A DNA stretch of 7,438 nt from a virus (IMGVR_UViG_2671181019_000005); one strand, 5' to 3'. Shown: positions 1,879 through 7,200, numbered from the stretch's first letter. Notes: generated by a model not told the origin, from the letters alone. Translations and numbers: made by a program.

Positions 1879-2204
1879 AAACCTTCCGCTGGAAAGTGAA
1901 ACCCGGTATGGATGTGGCTTCGGCCCCTTCCGTAAGAAAGGTGCGCTTTGGTGATGGCTATTCCCAGCGAGCGCCTGCCGGGCTGAACACTGACCTGAAA
2001 ACGTACAGCGTGACGCTTTCTGTTCCCCGTTGGGAGGCCGCGGCGCTGGAGTCGTTTCTGGCTGAGCACGGGGGCTGGAAGGCCTTTCTGTGGACGCCGC
2101 CTTATGGCTACCGGCAGATAAAGGTGACCTGCGCAAAATGGTCGTCGCGGGTCAGTATGCTGCGTGTTGAGTTCAGCGCAGAGTTTGAACAGGTGGTGAA
2201 CTGA
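1875..2204 (+). CDS. M: Minor tail protein M (lambda gpM-like), 109 aa
   Basis: ORF 1875..2204 with a good SD. The translation MKTFRWKVKPGMDVAS...WTPPYGYRQIKVTCAKWSSRVSMLRVEFSAEFEQVVN is near-identical, from memory, to lambda gpM, and has the same length (109 aa). Start overlaps the H stop (ATGA); stop overlaps the L start (TGATG). Confidence 0.95.
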   Translation: MKTFRWKVKPGMDVASAPSVRKVRFGDGYSQRAPAGLNTDLKTYSVTLSVPRWEAAALESFLAEHGGWKAFLWTPPYGYRQIKVTCAKWSSRVSMLRVEFSAEFEQVVN

Positions 2205-2902
2205 TGCAGGATATCCGGCAGGAAACACTGAATGAATGCACCCGTACGGAGCAGTCGGCCAGCGTGGTGCTCTGGGAAATCGACCTGACAGAGGTCGGTG
2301 GAGAACGTTATTTTTTCTGTAATGAGCAGAACGAAAAAGGTGAGCCGGTCACCTGGCAGGGGCGGCAGTATCAGCCGTATCCCATTCAGGGGAGTGGTTT
2401 TGAACTGAATGGCAAAGGCACCAGTACGCGCCCCACGCTGACGGTTTCTAACCTGTACGGTATGGTCACCGGGATGGCGGAAGATCTGCAGAGTCTGGTC
2501 GGCGGAACGGTGGTCCGGCGTAAGGTTTACGCCCGTTTTCTGGATGCGGTGAACTTCGTCAACGGAAACAGTGACGCCGATCCGGAGCAGGAGGTGATCA
2601 GCAGCTGGCGCATTGAGCAGTGCAGCGAACTGAGCGCGGTGAGTGCCTCTTTTGTACTGTCCACGCCGACGGAAACGGACGGTGCTGTTTTTCCTGGACG
2701 TATCATGCTGGCCAACACCTGCACCTGGACCTATCGCGGTGATGAGTGCGGTTATCACGGTCCGGCAGTCGCGGATGAATATGATCAGCCGACGTCCGAT
2801 ATCACGAAGGATAAATGCAGCAAATGCCTGAGTGGCTGTAAGTTTCGCAATAACGTCGGCAACTTTGGCGGCTTCCTTTCCATTAACAAACTTTCGCAGT
2901 AA
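2204..2902 (+). CDS. L: Minor tail protein L (lambda gpL-like), 232 aa
   Basis: ORF 2204..2902. The translation MQDIRQETLNECTRTEQSASVVLWEIDLTEVGGERYFFCNEQ...CSKCLSGCKFRNNVGNFGGFLSINKLSQ matches lambda gpL from memory (same length, C-terminal Cys cluster). Start codon overlaps the M stop. Confidence 0.95.
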   Translation: MQDIRQETLNECTRTEQSASVVLWEIDLTEVGGERYFFCNEQNEKGEPVTWQGRQYQPYPIQGSGFELNGKGTSTRPTLTVSNLYGMVTGMAEDLQSLVGGTVVRRKVYARFLDAVNFVNGNSDADPEQEVISSWRIEQCSELSAVSASFVLSTPTETDGAVFPGRIMLANTCTWTYRGDECGYHGPAVADEYDQPTSDITKDKCSKCLSGCKFRNNVGNFGGFLSINKLSQ

Positions 2903-2907
2903 ATCCC

Positions 2908-3651
2908 ATGACACAGACAGAATCAGCGATTCTGGCGCACGCCCGGCGATGTGCGCCAGCGGAGTCGTGCGGCTTCGTGGTAAGCACGCCGGAGGGGGAA
3001 AGATATTTTCCCTGCGTGAATATCTCCGGTGAGCCGGAGGCGTATTTCCGGATGTCGCCGGAGGACTGGCTGCGGGCAGAGATGCAGGGTGAGATTGTGG
3101 CGCTGGTCCACAGCCACCCCGGTGGTCTGCCCTGGCTGAGTGAGACCGACCGGCGGCTGCAGGTGCAGAGTAATTTGCCGTGGTGGCTGGTTTGCCGGGG
3201 GGCGATTCACAAGTTCCGCTGTGTGCCACATCTTTCCGGGCGGCGCTTTGAGCACGGGGTGACGGACTGTTACACGCTGTTCCGGGATGCTTACCATCTG
3301 GCGGGGATTGAGATGCCGGATTTTCATCGCGGGGATGACTGGTGGCGTCACGGTCAGAATCTCTATCTGGATAATCTGGAGGCCACAGGGCTGTATCAGG
3401 TGCCGTTGTCAGCGGCGCAGCCGGGCGATGTGCTGCTGTGTTGTTTTGGTTCATCGGTGCCGAATCATGCCGCCATTTACTGTGGTGACAGCGAGCTGCT
3501 GCACCATATTCCTGAACAACTGAGCAAACGAGAGAGGTACACCGACAAATGGCAGCGACGCACACACTCCCTCTGGCGTCACCGGGAATGGCACGCATCT
3601 GCCTTTACGGGGATTTACAACGATTTGGCCGCCGCATCGACCTTCGAGTGA
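2908..3651 (+). CDS. K: Tail assembly protein K (lambda gpK-like) with JAMM/MPN metalloprotease and NlpC/P60 cysteine peptidase motifs; 247 aa from the first ATG, alternative start at 3052 (199 aa)
   Basis: ORF 2908..3651 begins 5 nt after the L stop. It contains the JAMM signature HxHx7Sx2D as HSHPGGLPWLSETD (about 3109-3150), and an NlpC/P60-like Cys (DCYTLF, Cys codon 3268-3270) with downstream His residues (NHAAIY, LLHHIP). The protein is near-identical to lambda gpK from memory. The lambda annotation starts at the internal Met corresponding to 3052, which here has a GGAGG (3036-3040) 11 nt upstream, whereas 2908 has no obvious SD. Confidence 0.88.
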   Translation: MTQTESAILAHARRCAPAESCGFVVSTPEGERYFPCVNISGEPEAYFRMSPEDWLRAEMQGEIVALVHSHPGGLPWLSETDRRLQVQSNLPWWLVCRGAIHKFRCVPHLSGRRFEHGVTDCYTLFRDAYHLAGIEMPDFHRGDDWWRHGQNLYLDNLEATGLYQVPLSAAQPGDVLLCCFGSSVPNHAAIYCGDSELLHHIPEQLSKRERYTDKWQRRTHSLWRHREWHASAFTGIYNDLAAASTFE

Positions 3652-4196
3652 AAACGGGGTCCGAAGCCATCCGGGCGCTGGCCATGCAGATCCCGGCGTT
3701 TCGTCAGAAACTGAGCGACGGCTGGTACCAGGTACGGATTGCCGGGCGGGATGCAGGAGAAACCGAATTATCATCCCGTCTTAATGAGCCGCTGAAAAAT
3801 GGTGCCGTGATCCACATCGTTCCGCGTCTTGCGGGAGCAAAAAGTGGCGGTGTATTTCAGGCGGTGCTGGGTGCGGCGCTGATTGCAGTGGCGTGGTGGA
3901 ACCCTGCAGGCTGGCTGGGAGCTGCGGCTTTATCGGGCATGTATGCTGCGGGGGCCAGTATGATCCTTGGCGGTGTGGCGCAGATGCTGGCACCGAAAGC
4001 CAGTACCGCAACAACGACCAGCACGGATAACGGTAAGCAGAACACGTATTTCTCGTCACTGGATAACATGGTTGCCCAGGGCAATGTTCTGCCTGTTCTG
4101 TACGGTGAAATGCGCGTGGGGTCACGTGTGGTTTCTCAGGAGATCAGCACGGCAGACGAAGGGGACGGTGGTCAGGTTGTGGTGATTGGTCGCTGA
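3549..4196 (+). CDS. I: Tail assembly protein I (lambda gpI-like), 215 aa; N-terminal ubiquitin-like domain, central Gly/Ala-rich hydrophobic segment, conserved C-terminus
   Basis: ORF 3549..4196 overlaps the 3' end of K by 103 nt in the -1 frame relative to K. The N-terminus MAATHTLPLASPGMARICLYGDLQRFGRRIDLRVKTG... and the C-terminus ...DNGKQNTYFSSLDNMVAQGNVLPVLYGEMRVGSRVVSQEISTADEGDGGQVVVIGR match lambda gpI from memory. The middle (about aa 68-155) appears different from lambda and a few residues shorter. Confidence 0.9.
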   Translation: MAATHTLPLASPGMARICLYGDLQRFGRRIDLRVKTGSEAIRALAMQIPAFRQKLSDGWYQVRIAGRDAGETELSSRLNEPLKNGAVIHIVPRLAGAKSGGVFQAVLGAALIAVAWWNPAGWLGAAALSGMYAAGASMILGGVAQMLAPKASTATTTSTDNGKQNTYFSSLDNMVAQGNVLPVLYGEMRVGSRVVSQEISTADEGDGGQVVVIGR

Positions 4197-4213
4197 GGCA
4201 AAATGTTTTATGT

Positions 4214-4235
4214 GAAACCGCCTCCGGGCGGTTTT
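4214..4235 (+). promoter_or_regulatory. GC-rich hairpin in the I-J intergenic spacer (8-bp stem AAACCGCC / GGCGGTTT, 4-nt loop TCCG) followed by a T-rich tract; terminator-like or attenuator/RNA-stability element
   Basis: Direct base pairing: 4215-4222 aaaccgcc pairs with 4227-4234 ggcggttt, with loop 4223-4226 tccg. It is followed by ttttgtcgttt. It lies between the I stop (4196) and the J start (4257). Confidence 0.4.
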
Positions 4236-4244
4236 GTCGTTTAT

Positions 4245-4256
4245 GGAGCGTGAGGA
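4245..4256 (+). promoter_or_regulatory. Ribosome-binding region for J (GGAG at 4245-4248, GAGGA at 4252-4256)
   Basis: Purine-rich SD-like motifs immediately upstream of the J ATG at 4257; GGAG has an 8-nt spacer. Confidence 0.45.
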
Positions 4257-7200
4257 ATGGGTAAAGGCAGCAGTAAGGGGCATACCCCGCGCGAAGCGAA
4301 GGACAACCTGAAGTCCACGCAGTTGCTGAGTGTGATCGATGCCATCAGCGAAGGGCCGGTTGAAGGTCCGGTGGATGGATTAAAAAGCGTGCTGCTGAAC
4401 AGTACGCCGGTGCTGGACACTGAGGGGAATACCAATATCTCCGGCGTCACGGTGGTGTTCCGGGCCGGTGAGCAGGAGCAGACACCGCCGGAGGGATTTG
4501 AATCCTCCGGCTCCGAGACGGTGCTGGGTACGGAAGTGAAGTACGACACGCCGATTACCCGGACCATCACGTCTGCAAACATCGACCGTCTGCGCTTTAC
4601 CTTCGGTGTGCAGGCACTGGTGGAAACCACCTCAAAGGGGGACCGGAATCCGTCGGAAGTCCGCCTGCTGGTTCAGATACAGCGTAACGGTGGCTGGGTG
4701 ACGGAAAAAGACATCACCATTAAAGGCAAAACCACCTCACAGTATCTGGCCTCGGTGGTGGTGGGTAACCTGCCGCCGCGCCCGTTCAATATCCGGATGC
4801 GCAGGATGACGCCGGACAGCACCACAGACCAGCTGCAGAACAAAACGCTCTGGTCGTCATACACCGAAATCATCGATGTGAAACAGTGCTACCCGAACAC
4901 GGCACTGGTCGGCGTACAGGTGGATTCGGAGCAGTTCGGCAGCCAGCAGGTGAGCCGTAATTATCATCTGCGCGGGCGTATTCTGCAGGTGCCGTCGAAC
5001 TATAACCCGCAGACGCGGCAATACAGCGGTATCTGGGACGGAACGTTTAAGCCAGCATACAGCAATAACATGGCCTGGTGTCTGTGGGATATGCTGACCC
5101 ATCCACGCTACGGCATGGGGAAACGTCTTGGTGCGGCGGATGTGGATAAATGGGCGCTGTATGTCATCGGCCAGAATTGCGACCAGTCGGTGCCGGATGG
5201 CTTTGGTGGCACGGAGCCGCGTATCACCTGTAATGCGTACCTGACCACGCAGCGCAAGGCGTGGGATGTGCTCAGTGATTTCTGCTCGGCGATGCGCTGT
5301 ATGCCGGTATGGAACGGGCAGACGCTGACGTTCGTGCAGGACCGGCCATCGGATAAGGTGTGGACCTATAACCGCAGTAATGTGGTGATGCCGGATGATG
5401 GCGCACCGTTCCGCTACAGCTTCAGCGCCCTGAAGGACCGCCATAATGCCGTTGAGGTGAACTGGATTGACCCGGATAACGGCTGGGAGACGGCGACAGA
5501 GCTTGTGGAGGATACGCAGGCCATTGTCCGTTACGGTCGTAACGTCACGAAGATGGATGCCTTTGGCTGTACCAGCCGGGGGCAGGCACACCGCGCCGGG
5601 CTGTGGCTGATTAAAACGGAGCTGCTGGAGACGCAGACCGTGGACTTCAGCGTGGGCGCAGAAGGGCTTCGCCATGTACCGGGCGATGTCATTGAAATCT
5701 GCGATGATGACTATGCCGGTATCAGCACCGGCGGGCGCGTGCTGGCGGTGAACAGCCAGACCCGGACGCTGACGCTCGACCGTGAAATCACGCTGCCATC
5801 TTCCGGCACCACGCTGATAAGCCTGGTTGACGGAAGTGGCAATCCGGTCAGCGTGGAGGTTCAGTCCGTCACTGATGGCGTGAAGGTAAAAGTGAGCCGT
5901 GTTCCTGACGGCGTTGCCGGATACAGTGTATGGGGGCTGAAGCTGCCGATGCTGCGCCAGCGCCAGTTCCGCTGCGTGAGTATCCGTGAGAACGACGACG
6001 GCACGTATGCCATCACCGCCGTGCAGCATGTACCGGAAAAAGAGGCCATCGTGGATAACGGGGCGCACTTTGACGGCGACCAGAGCGGCACGGTGAATGG
6101 TGTCACGCCGCCAGCGGTGCAGCACCTGACCGCAGAAGTCACCGCAGACAGTGGGGAATATCAGGTGCTGGCGCGCTGGGACACGCCGAAGGTGGTGAAG
6201 GGGGTGAGCTTTATGCTTCGCCTGACCGTGGCAGCGGATGACGGCAGTGAGCGGCTGGTCAGCACGGCCCGGACGACGGAAACCACATACCGCTTCAGGC
6301 AACTGGCGCTGGGGAACTACAGGCTGACAGTCCGGGCGGTAAATGCGTGGGGGCAGCAGGGCGACCCGGCGTCGGTATCGTTCCGGATTGCCGCACCGGC
6401 AGCACCGTCGAGGATTGAGCTGACGCCGGGCTATTTTCAGATAACCGCCACGCCGCATCTTGCCGTTTATGACCCGACGGTACAGTTTGAGTTCTGGTTC
6501 TCGGAAAAACGGATTGCGGATATCAGGCAGGTTGAAACCACAGCCCGCTATCTTGGTACGGCGCTGTACTGGATAGCCGCCAGTATCAATATTAAGCCGG
6601 GCCATGATTATTATTTTTACGTTCGCAGTGTGAACACAGTCGGCAAATCGGCATTCGTGGAGGCTGTCGGTCGGGCGAGCGATGATGCGGAAGGTTACCT
6701 GGATTTTTTCAAAGGAGAAATCGGGAAAACACATCTGGCCCAGGAGCTGTGGACGCAGATTGATAACGGTCAGCTTGCGCCGGACCTGGTTGAAATCAGG
6801 ACGTCCATTACGAATGTCAGCAATGAAATCACGCAGACCGTCAATAAAAAACTGGAAGACCAGAGTGCGGCAATCCAGCAGATACAGAAAGTTCAGGTTG
6901 ATACAAATAATAACCTGAACAGCATGTGGGCCGTGAAACTGCAGCAGATGAAGGACGGACGCCTTTATATTGCGGGTATCGGAGCCGGTATTGGGAATAC
7001 GCCAGCAGGTATGCAGAGTCAGGTGCTTCTGGCTGCTGACCGGATTGCGATGATTAATCCTGCGAATGGCAACACAAAGCCGATGTTTGTTGGTCAGGGC
7101 GATCAGATATTCATGAACGACGTGTTCCTGAAACGCCTGACAGCTCCGACCATTACCAGCGGCGGTAATCCTCCGGCATTTTCCCTGACACCGGACGGGC

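What the first reader, a model, noticed from the sequence alone, without database searches (positions are those of the whole stretch)
2908..3651. K is a two-enzyme protein (JAMM/MPN plus NlpC/P60) and its true start is ambiguous
The sequence shows a complete JAMM motif (HSHPGGLPWLSETD) and an NlpC/P60-type Cys/His set in one ORF. The ORF is open for 48 codons upstream of the Met that corresponds to the lambda-annotated gpK start. That extension begins 5 nt after the L stop and would supply the N-terminal part of the MPN fold, including candidate metal-coordinating Glu residues. Neither start has an ideal SD (none at 2908; GGAGG with an 11-nt spacer at 3052), so which form is made, or whether both are, cannot be settled from sequence. 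A tail-assembly protein carrying both a deubiquitinase-like metalloprotease and a cysteine peptidase is functionally under-explained.
Basis: partly seen in the sequence, partly recalled or inferred. Interest (0 to 1): 0.55.

Follow-up and report, generated by a model that had tools for sequence, protein, structure and literature searches.

The report
Lambda-type tail assembly protease K, full-length
This is the ordinary tail-tip assembly gene K of a lambda-like phage: it really carries two peptidase domains, it starts at the upstream ATG to give 247 amino acids, and the short 199-residue "lambda gpK" comes from one missing base in the 1982 lambda reference sequence.

Summary
ORF 2908-3651 encodes 247 aa with a complete Prok-JAB/JAMM domain (res 3-100) and an NlpC/P60 domain (res 111-224).

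The start can be settled from sequence, and ATG 2908 is the real one.
- The first 48 codons hold the catalytic Glu (E19), and the model is most confident there.
- Among 106 homologues below 65% identity, these positions are 95% occupied.
- dN/dS for codons 1-48 is 0.24.
- Codon 1 is ATG in 88/88 unique close relatives. The start lies -4 to +17 nt from the L stop in 35 of 38 diverged prophages.
- Codon 49 is a start codon in only 3 of 46 diverged loci, and none of these has an SD.

The 199-aa lambda annotation exists because J02459/NC_001416 lacks a G after position 14266, so the upstream part is out of frame. Every independently sequenced lambda copy I fetched has that G and a 247-aa ORF.

The JAB plus NlpC/P60 architecture was published in 2003-2006. 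A proposed role was also published: cutting the ubiquitin-like domain off gpI, the product of the next, overlapping gene. A 2025 conference report says this was confirmed experimentally. The NlpC/P60 substrate is still unknown.

Verdict: already known, low interest.

The parts
2204..2902 (+). Gene L (tail tip protein), upstream neighbour; its stop TAA is at 2900-2902
   Evidence: Pfam Phage_tail_L, E 1e-100; ORF list
2900..2910 (+). L-K junction TAA-ATCCC-ATG. It has no Shine-Dalgarno sequence and is the presumed site of translational coupling (termination-reinitiation)
   Evidence: Anti-SD duplex dG is +0.7. The junction is stop + 4-5 nt + ATG in nearly all of 117 close loci, with no purine-rich SD in any. 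In 35 of 38 diverged loci the K start lies -4 to +17 nt from the L stop.
2908..3651 (+). Gene K, full length: 247 aa, 28.3 kDa, tail-tip assembly protease
   Evidence: ORF; Pfam two-domain match; the same 744-nt CDS is annotated in mEp460, vB_EcoS-640R1 and lambda PV340536; homologues of 230-260 aa align from residue ~1-10
2908..3051 (+). Codons 1-48, the 'extension': helix 3-15 and strands 21-27 and 30-36 of the MPN fold, including the catalytic Glu19 (2962-2964) in the motif P-x-E-x-C-G
   Evidence: pLDDT is 91-95 over residues 1-40 and 76 over 41-50. P17, E19, C21, G22, N38 and F47 are conserved in 87-97% of 106 diverged homologues, with 95% occupancy. dN/dS is 0.24. PDB 2KKS aligns from residue 7.
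3109..3150 (+). JAMM motif HSHPGGLPWLSETD (H68, H70, S78, D81)
   Evidence: for coordinates; conserved in 91-97% of diverged homologues; invariant H68, S69, H70 and D81 in alignment A2
3036..3054 (+). SD-like GGAGG (3036-3040), the G at 3042 that is missing from the lambda reference (insertion after 14266), and the internal ATG at codon 49 (3052-3054), which is the start annotated in lambda
   Evidence: Codon 49 is a start codon in 3 of 46 diverged loci, none with an SD. GGAGG is part of the E42-P43-E44-A45 codons.
3238..3579 (+). NlpC/P60 (C40) cysteine peptidase domain, res 111-224; catalytic C121 (3268-3270), H187 (3466-3468) and H199 (3502-3504)
   Evidence: Pfam PF00877, 46.1 bits; catalytic residues conserved in 95-96%; Foldseek hits to 4HPE, 9UBF, LytE 8I2E and MepS 8XUD; dN/dS 0.07
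3586..3651 (+). K C-terminal tail (res 227-247) plus stop, encoded in the overlap with gene I; low model confidence
   Evidence: pLDDT is below 50 for 234-247. Occupancy is 0.39 in diverged homologues. K-frame dN/dS is much greater than 1 among close relatives, but I-frame wobble entropy is reduced in deep comparisons.
3549..4196 (+). Gene I (-1 frame relative to K): N-terminal ubiquitin-like domain (res 14-97, nt 3588-3839), conserved G96 and G100-G101 (3846-3851), then the structural C-terminal part. It is the probable substrate of K. The family-conserved start is ATG 3588; ATG 3549 is specific to the lambda clade.
   Evidence: Pfam Lambda_tail_I covers res 14-97. I-frame dN/dS is 0.035 over 3585-3647. 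ATG at res 14 in 36 of 44 deep loci, against 10 of 44 at res 1. G96 and G101 are invariant in 44 of 44.

Best explanation
The region is gene K of a lambdoid phage or prophage.

**Start and product.** K is translated from ATG 2908, 5 nt after the stop of L. Because there is no Shine-Dalgarno sequence, initiation most likely depends on ribosomes that terminate on L and reinitiate. The product is one 247-aa (28 kDa) protein that is not part of the virion.

**Domains.**
- Residues 1 to about 105 form a complete minimal JAMM/MPN+ zinc metalloprotease (E19, H68, H70, S78, D81).
- Residues 111-224 form an NlpC/P60 papain-like cysteine peptidase (C121, H187, H199).

**Why the short form exists.** The 199-aa 'lambda gpK' that starts at codon 49 is an annotation legacy. 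The 1982 lambda sequence lacks one G, 10 nt before that ATG, so the first 48 codons appeared to be out of frame.

**Function.** During tail-tip assembly the JAB domain acts like a deubiquitinase. It cuts the N-terminal ubiquitin-like domain off gpI, the product of the next, overlapping gene, at the conserved Gly residues that end that domain. The C-terminal part of gpI stays in the tip as the plug. K then leaves.

**Shown here:** the ORF, both domains, conservation of the catalytic residues, conservation of the start, and the error in the reference sequence.
**Taken from the literature:** cleavage of gpI, and absence of K from virions.
**Inferred:** translational coupling.
**Open:** the substrate of the NlpC/P60 domain.
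For: **Domains**
- Pfam: Prok-JAB 54.6 bits over res 3-100 and NLPC_P60 46.1 bits over res 111-224. The 199-aa form keeps only profile positions 63-109 of the JAB model, at 25.8 bits.
- PDB MPN protein 2KKS aligns from residue 7, with E19 aligned to the Glu of its NEACG motif.
- The AF2 model has pLDDT 91-95 over residues 1-40.
- The best Foldseek hits are the archaeal desampylase PfJAMM1, including its complex with the ubiquitin-like SAMP2 (5LD9, 5LDA), then Rpn11 and CSN5. NlpC/P60 hydrolases match the C-terminal domain.

**Start**
- 2752 representatives score E<=1e-3. Those of 230-260 aa and 34-59% identity align from query residue 1-10.
- In 106 diverged homologues, residues 1-48 are 95% occupied, and E19, C21, G22 and N38 are conserved in 90-97%.
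- dN/dS is 0.24 for codons 1-48, against 0.15 for the rest of the JAB domain. Codon 1 is ATG in 88/88 unique sequences, while codon 49 is CTG, ATC or ATA in 4.
- In 46 diverged loci codon 49 is ATT, ATA, ATC or GTT in 42, and none has an SD.
- The start lies next to the L stop across Enterobacterales, Pasteurellaceae, Gilliamella and Aeromonadales.

**Reference error**
- NC_001416 reads GGAGGC-TATTTCC, where the window, mEp460, DE3, lambda imm21, KT232076, LC730321 and PV340536 read GGAGGCGTATTTCC.
- All of the more than 30 lambda-identical copies among the fetched loci have the G.
- The MutaMouse lambda-gt10 transgene shows 14266 C>CG and 137 AG>A relative to the reference (PMC6760142).
- OR974322, the only other fetched record without the G, also shares the reference-specific G at 138.

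**Function**
- Iyer, Burroughs and Aravind 2006 described TAPK as JAB plus NlpC/P60 and TAPI as ubiquitin-like, and predicted that K cleaves I at the C-terminal Gly.
- gpK is not detected in virions by mass spectrometry.
- gpI is resolved only from about residue 101 in virions.
- The I homologue follows K in all 49 diverged loci listed, overlapping the K stop in 48 of them. G96 and G101 of I are invariant in 44/44 deep I alignments.
Against: - There is no direct evidence of the protein's N-terminus, either proteomic or from ribosome profiling.
- ATG 2908 has no SD, while ATG 3052 has a strong one (dG -9.5), so some internal initiation in the lambda clade cannot be excluded. Gene callers still produce thousands of 199-aa calls (clusters P0057, P0059, P0065 and P0069).
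- The gpI-cleavage result is known to me only from a conference summary, not from a paper with data.
- The exact cleavage site (after G96 or after G101) is not known.
- The role of the strongly conserved NlpC/P60 triad is not explained by the JAB-Ubl model.
Confidence: 0.85

Rival explanations
1. Both forms are made in lambda-clade phages. Besides the 247-aa protein, internal initiation at ATG 3052, driven by GGAGG-N11, gives a 199-aa isoform. This isoform would have an intact NlpC/P60 domain and a non-functional JAB remnant, and would do a separate job.
For: There is a strong SD-like sequence (dG -9.5) at a usable, if long, spacing before ATG 3052, and no SD at 2908. 115 of 121 close loci keep ATG at codon 49, and 119 keep the SD-like sequence. 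Iyer et al. note phage versions of K that carry only NlpC/P60, and RcGTA g14 is an NlpC/P60-only counterpart.
Against: GGAGG is the E-P-E-A codons of a conserved peptide, and Met49 is a conserved hydrophobic position (Ile in most homologues), so both are explained by coding constraint. Only 3 of 46 diverged loci have a start codon there and none has an SD. Four unique close relatives have CTG, ATC or ATA at codon 49. The 11-nt spacing is longer than optimal.
Confidence: 0.12
2. The short form is the only real product. The gene starts at 3052 as annotated in lambda, and the upstream 48 codons are untranslated spacer.
For: The lambda reference, DE3 and lambda imm21 annotations use this start, and it has an SD. 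Many automatic 199-aa calls exist.
Against: The upstream codons are conserved as protein down to 33% identity and are under purifying selection (dN/dS 0.24). They contain the catalytic Glu and three core secondary-structure elements of the MPN fold, and the short form barely reaches the Pfam JAB threshold. The reference annotation is explained by a missing base.
Confidence: 0.02
3. The main job of K is muralytic. The NlpC/P60 domain is a peptidoglycan endopeptidase that helps the tail or the DNA cross the cell wall, and the JAB domain is accessory.
For: The NlpC/P60 triad is 95-96% conserved and its dN/dS of 0.07 is the lowest in the gene. The closest structures are cell-wall hydrolases. The RcGTA counterpart g14 degrades peptidoglycan in vitro and may sit in the tail lumen. 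The enzyme that lambda uses on peptidoglycan is still unidentified.
Against: gpK was not found in lambda virions by mass spectrometry and was not resolved in any tail structure, nor was its F-pyocin counterpart. Deleting RcGTA g14 blocks tail formation, which points to an assembly role. The score against the GTA-type family TIGR02219 is far below its cut-off (23.6 against 81.9 bits).
Confidence: 0.15

Closest known systems
Bacteriophage lambda gpK (tail tip assembly protein K; 'TAPK' of Iyer, Burroughs and Aravind 2006; PGAP name 'C40 family peptidase')
   Same: About 96% amino-acid identity. Same position in the H-M-L-K-I-J block, the same L-K junction and the same 103-nt overlap with I. Same JAB plus NlpC/P60 architecture.
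   Different: None in kind. The only difference is in annotation: the lambda reference entry is 199 aa because of the missing G after 14266, whereas this window and re-sequenced lambda copies encode 247 aa.
Archaeal desampylases and minimal JAMM proteases (PfJAMM1 5LD9/5LDA, HvJAMM1; NCBIfam NF041370), and eukaryotic Rpn11 and CSN5
   Same: Same MPN+ fold and E...HxHx7Sx2D active site. These are the best structural matches, including a complex with a ubiquitin-like protein. They work by cutting after the C-terminal Gly-Gly of a beta-grasp domain.
   Different: K scores below the desampylase family cut-off (30.5 against 130 bits). It is fused to an NlpC/P60 domain. Its presumed substrate is a linear fusion (ubiquitin-like domain joined to a structural domain in gpI), not an isopeptide conjugate. 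No E1 or E2 partners are present.
RcGTA g14 (Rcc01697) and the TIGR02219 phage NlpC/P60 family
   Same: An NlpC/P60 peptidase encoded at the equivalent place in a lambda-like tail module and required for tail formation.
   Different: g14 has 150 residues and no JAB domain. It has shown peptidoglycan-degrading activity and may be carried in the particle. K scores only 23.6 bits against a cut-off of 81.9.

Membership tests
JAMM/MPN+ metalloprotease (Pfam Prok-JAB PF14464) | Profile match above the curated threshold, covering the whole domain | tested here: met
   54.6 bits against a cut-off of 25; residues 3-100 match profile positions 3-108 of 114. With the 199-aa form the score is only 25.8 bits and only profile positions 63-109 are matched.
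JAMM/MPN+ metalloprotease (Pfam Prok-JAB PF14464) | Active-site motif E...HxHx7Sx2D | tested here: met
   E19, H68, H70, S78 and D81 are present. They are conserved in 91-97% of 106 homologues below 65% identity.
JAMM/MPN+ metalloprotease (Pfam Prok-JAB PF14464) | MPN fold | tested here: met
   AF2 model with pLDDT 91-95 over residues 1-40. The top Foldseek hits are PfJAMM1 5LD9/5LDA (TM 0.65 on the target, 109 columns), Rpn11 and CSN5.
JAMM/MPN+ metalloprotease (Pfam Prok-JAB PF14464) | Zinc binding and peptidase or isopeptidase activity after a ubiquitin-like domain | not testable with these tools
   Only a conference summary reports cleavage of gpI by gpK.
NlpC/P60 (Pfam PF00877, MEROPS C40) | Profile match above the curated threshold | tested here: met
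   46.1 bits against a cut-off of 23; residues 111-224 match profile positions 1-105 of 105.
NlpC/P60 (Pfam PF00877, MEROPS C40) | Catalytic Cys-His plus a third polar residue, in a papain-like fold | tested here: met
   C121, H187 and H199 are conserved in 95-96% of homologues. Foldseek hits include 4HPE, 9UBF, LytE 8I2E and MepS 8XUD.
NlpC/P60 (Pfam PF00877, MEROPS C40) | Hydrolysis of peptidoglycan stem peptides or another defined substrate | not testable with these tools
   The substrate is unknown. K is absent from virions according to the literature.
Lambda gpK / TAPK tail-tip assembly protein | Near-identity to lambda K and synteny L-K-I-J | tested here: met
   About 96% identity to lambda copies. 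The neighbours are Phage_tail_L and Lambda_tail_I. Annotated records show the same gene order.
Lambda gpK / TAPK tail-tip assembly protein | Paired with a downstream gpI that carries an N-terminal ubiquitin-like domain ending in conserved Gly | tested here: met
   Lambda_tail_I domain at residues 14-97. G96 and G101 are invariant in 44/44 deep I alignments. An I homologue follows K in all 49 diverged loci listed, overlapping the K stop in 48 of them.
Lambda gpK / TAPK tail-tip assembly protein | Required for tail assembly but absent from the finished virion | not testable with these tools
   Literature only.
TIGR02219 phage_NlpC_fam (GTA g14 type) | Score above the NCBIfam cut-off | tested here: not met
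   23.6 bits against a cut-off of 81.9.
Desampylase NF041370 | Score above the NCBIfam cut-off | tested here: not met
   30.5 bits against a cut-off of 130. The match appears only with the 247-aa form.

The most novel reading that the evidence does not exclude
The out-of-frame overlap between the end of K and the start of I (at least 58-64 nt) may be a functional dual-coding element rather than an accident of packing. It is conserved from E. coli phages to prophages of Pasteurellaceae, Gilliamella and Aeromonadales. K's C-terminal tail (motif F-T-x-I-x-N-D-L) and the first beta-strand of I's ubiquitin-like domain would then both be under selection. The overlap could tie synthesis of the substrate (I) to synthesis of its protease (K), or give K a docking element for I.
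Probability: 0.3. Interest if true: 0.4.

Novelty: already known. Interest (0 to 1): 0.2.

Why it matters
The main value is practical. The canonical lambda entry (J02459/NC_001416, 199-aa gpK) is still copied into new annotations, reviews and gene-caller output. That entry hides the N-terminal third of the JAMM domain, including the catalytic Glu. A 2020 review working from the 199-aa sequence saw only 'a peptidase domain'. Anyone expressing, mutating or modelling gpK should use the 247-aa form. Biologically, K plus I is a minimal phage-encoded pair of a deubiquitinase-like enzyme and a ubiquitin-like domain that controls the order of tail-tip assembly. That idea is already published, so this window adds nothing new in kind.

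Tried and rejected
1. **Other in-frame starts for K.** GTG at codon 24 (2977) and GTG at codon 37 (3016, used in record KT232076) both lie downstream of the catalytic E19 and of the conserved N-terminus, so both are rejected.
2. **A programmed -1 frameshift fusing K to I.** I is in the -1 frame, and K-I fused proteins and a fused PHROG profile exist. However, there is no X_XXY_YYZ heptamer anywhere in the K frame, and the fused database proteins are clusters of only 1-2 members. Rejected as a canonical frameshift.
3. **GTG 3648 (overlapping the K stop) as the I start**, as annotated in mEp460 and PV340536. The I frame is under strong purifying selection upstream of it (dN/dS 0.035), so this is rejected.
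4. **The missing G as a real polymorphism of lambda.** Among the fetched loci, the only other record without the G (OR974322) also shares the other reference-specific base at 138. All independent assemblies differ from the reference at both sites. A second 100%-matching record (OR474059) was not fetched or checked.
5. **Searches that led nowhere.**
   - The search for related loci with the 36-sequence alignment failed for lack of a conserved block. It was rerun with 10 closer sequences.
   - Liu et al. 2013 (lambda ribosome profiling) and Casjens and Hendrix 2015 are not held in the library, so I could not check whether they discuss the K start.
   - The CRISPRi essentiality paper and the lambda mutation-rate preprint say nothing on the point.

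Full report
**What the window is.** The 7.4-kb window is the tail-tip block of a lambdoid phage or prophage. It holds the end of H (19-1878), M (1875-2204), L (2204-2902), K (2908-3651), I (3549-4196) and the start of J (4258 onward). The closest public record is Escherichia phage mEp460_ev081 at 97% identity. Lambda itself is a few percent away.

**Checking the observation.**
- The ORF is 247 codons.
- The L stop TAA (2900-2902) is followed by ATCCC and then ATG 2908.
- HSHPGGLPWLSETD is residues 68-81.
- The Cys/His set is C121, H187 and H199/H200.
- ATG 3052 is codon 49 and aligns with lambda's annotated K start.
- GGAGG lies 11 nt upstream of ATG 3052, and 2908 has no SD.
- Pfam gives Prok-JAB (54.6 bits, res 3-100, profile 3-108 of 114) and NLPC_P60 (46.1 bits, res 111-224).
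- The 199-aa form retains only the last 47 profile positions of the JAB model, at 25.8 bits, right on the threshold.

**Which start is used.** Five independent lines point to ATG 2908.
1. *Family-wide protein conservation.*
   - A search of 1.84 billion cluster representatives found 2752 relatives.
   - The full-length ones (230-260 aa, 34-59% identity) align from query residue 1-10 at their own residue 1-15.
   - In 106 of them below 65% identity, residues 1-48 are 95% occupied. They are as similar to K (33%) as the rest of the JAB domain (35%).
   - P17, E19, C21, G22, N38 and F47 are conserved in 87-97%.
2. *Purifying selection.* Among 88 unique close sequences, dN/dS is 0.24 for codons 1-48, 0.15 for codons 49-110 and 0.07 for the NlpC/P60 domain. 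Codon 1 is ATG in all 88. Codon 49 is CTG, ATC or ATA in four.
3. *The short start is not conserved.* In 46 diverged prophage loci the codon aligned with Met49 is ATT, ATA, ATC or GTT in 42, and ATG in only 3. None has an SD-like sequence upstream. The GGAGG in this window is simply the codons of the conserved peptide E-P-E-A.
4. *Structure.*
   - The AF2 model (mean pLDDT 79.9) is most confident in residues 1-40 (pLDDT 91-95). These form the first helix and two strands of the MPN fold.
   - The best PDB matches are the minimal JAMM protease PfJAMM1, alone and bound to the ubiquitin-like SAMP2, then Rpn11 and CSN5.
   - PDB 2KKS aligns by sequence from residue 7, and its NEACG motif lies over K's AESCG.
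   - Without residues 1-48 the domain lacks its catalytic Glu.
5. *Gene organisation.* In nearly all of 117 close loci the junction is stop + 4-5 nt + ATG, with no purine-rich SD in any. In 35 of 38 diverged loci with a clear L homologue, the K start lies -4 to +17 nt from the L stop. This fits translational coupling, which I infer but have not shown.

**Why lambda's K is annotated short.**
- In the reference record (J02459/NC_001416) the sequence reads GGAGGC-TATTTCC. The window, mEp460, DE3, lambda imm21, KT232076, LC730321 and PV340536 read GGAGGCGTATTTCC.
- In the reference, the ORF that starts 5 nt after L therefore runs out of frame and stops after 76 codons. In all the others it runs for 247 codons.
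- All of the more than 30 copies of K that are at least 99.5% identical to lambda among the fetched loci carry the G. This includes lambda DNA that turns up as low-coverage contigs in assemblies of unrelated bacteria.
- A published variant table for the lambda-gt10 transgene of MutaMouse lists 14266 C>CG and 137 AG>A against the reference.
- LC730321 and lambda imm434 show the same pair of differences. OR974322, the only other fetched record without the G, also copies the reference at 138 and is probably reference-guided.
- The simplest reading is a one-base omission in the 1982 sequence. From memory only, this +G is also listed in supplier and software documentation for lambda DNA. I could not verify that here.
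- Annotations of the same gene now use three different starts: codon 1, codon 37 and codon 49. Automatic gene callers still produce large clusters of 199-aa calls.

**What K does.**
- The two-peptidase architecture and its link to gene I were described by Anantharaman and Aravind (2003, cited) and by Iyer, Burroughs and Aravind (2006).
- In that account, I has an N-terminal ubiquitin-like beta-grasp domain with a conserved C-terminal Gly. K has JAB plus NlpC/P60 domains, and the JAB domain probably releases the ubiquitin-like domain by cutting at that Gly.
[quoted passage not shown] The cleavage occurs only after gpI has engaged other tip proteins, which enforces the order of assembly.
- Supporting observations:
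  - gpK is absent from virions by mass spectrometry and is unresolved in tail structures.
  - gpI is visible only from about residue 101.
  - In this window the Lambda_tail_I domain covers I residues 14-97, followed by A-G96-A-K-S-G100-G101. G96 and G101 are invariant in 44 diverged homologues.
  - An I homologue follows K in all 49 diverged loci listed, overlapping the K stop in 48 of them.
- I therefore commit to the JAB-cleaves-gpI mechanism.
- The NlpC/P60 domain is clearly an active enzyme: its triad is 95-96% conserved and it has the lowest dN/dS in the gene. Its substrate is unknown.
- The counterpart in the Rhodobacter gene transfer agent (g14, NlpC/P60 only) degrades peptidoglycan in vitro, and its deletion blocks tail formation. 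A muralytic or second processing role therefore remains possible.

**Comparison with known families and novelty.**
- K passes every sequence and fold test for JAMM/MPN+ and for NlpC/P60. It is about 96% identical to lambda gpK, in the same gene order.
- It falls below the cut-offs of the desampylase family (30.5 against 130 bits) and the GTA-type phage NlpC family (23.6 against 81.9 bits). So it works like the former and resembles the latter without belonging to either.
- Nothing here is new in kind. The useful outcome is that the start is not ambiguous and that the 199-aa lambda entry is wrong.

**Side observations.** The I start is also annotated inconsistently.
- The GTG at 3648 used in some records cannot be right, because the I frame is under strong purifying selection upstream of it (dN/dS 0.035).
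- In deep comparisons the family-conserved start is the ATG at 3588: it is ATG in 36 of 44 loci, and the Pfam domain begins there.
- The lambda-annotated ATG at 3549 is a by-product of K's invariant Trp215 codon, and 25 of 44 loci have stops in that 13-codon stretch.
- The K-I overlap of at least 58-64 nt is conserved across several orders of Gammaproteobacteria.
- I-frame wobble positions inside the overlap are less variable than those outside (entropy 1.12 against 1.72). This suggests that K's C-terminal tail is also constrained.
- No canonical slippery site for a K-I frameshift fusion exists.

Noticed in passing
window 3042; L002 (NC_001416) between locus positions 967 and 968 (record 14266/14267): The lambda reference sequence lacks a G that is present in this window and in every independently sequenced lambda copy I fetched. 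This puts the first 48 codons of K out of frame and explains the 199-aa annotation. The same records also differ from the reference by loss of a G at 138.
   Followed up: yes
window 3549-3651: The start of gene I is annotated in two ways: ATG 3549 in lambda, and GTG 3648 in mEp460 and PV340536. Selection patterns rule out GTG 3648. They point to ATG 3588 (Met14) as the family-conserved start. ATG 3549 and its SD-like GAGAGG are by-products of K's conserved K-R-E-R...W codons and are specific to the lambda clade.
   Followed up: partly
window 3586-3651; loci L118-L167: The K stop lies 57-105 nt inside the I coding region in nearly all diverged prophages (Citrobacter, Proteus, Morganella, Gilliamella, Pasteurellaceae, Oceanimonas). 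K's tail keeps an F-T-x-I-x-N-D-L motif, and I's wobble positions are less variable inside the overlap, which suggests dual coding. No slippery heptamer for a frameshift fusion was found.
   Followed up: partly
loci L092, L095-L100, L102-L105, L112-L116, L120, L123, L153, L156: DNA identical to lambda appears as low-coverage contigs, some about 48.4-48.5 kb long, in genome assemblies labelled Neobacillus, Pseudomonas, Shewanella, Bradyrhizobium, Chromatium, Paenibacillus, Enterococcus and others. This is almost certainly laboratory lambda DNA contamination or spike-in.
   Followed up: no
PHROG profiles phrog_30 and phrog_28576; proteins P0015, P0025, P0032, P0036, P0089, P0118: Some database families and proteins fuse L to K, or K to I. 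The fused proteins are clusters of 1-11 members (1-2 for the K-I fusions) and probably reflect frameshift errors or read-through calls at the tight L-K and overlapping K-I junctions.
   Followed up: partly
window 4197-4257: The I-J intergenic region folds into a stable hairpin (AAACCGCC-UCCG-GGCGGUUU, extended to -21.1 kcal/mol, z -2.7) followed by a U-rich run. It looks like a terminator inside the late operon, just before the SD of J. The simple terminator scan did not list it.
   Followed up: partly
window 2108-3598 (-) and 4857-6734 (-): Very long antisense ORFs (496 and 625 aa) run opposite L/K and opposite J. There is no family evidence for them. They are most likely a by-product of the codon bias of the sense genes.
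   Followed up: no
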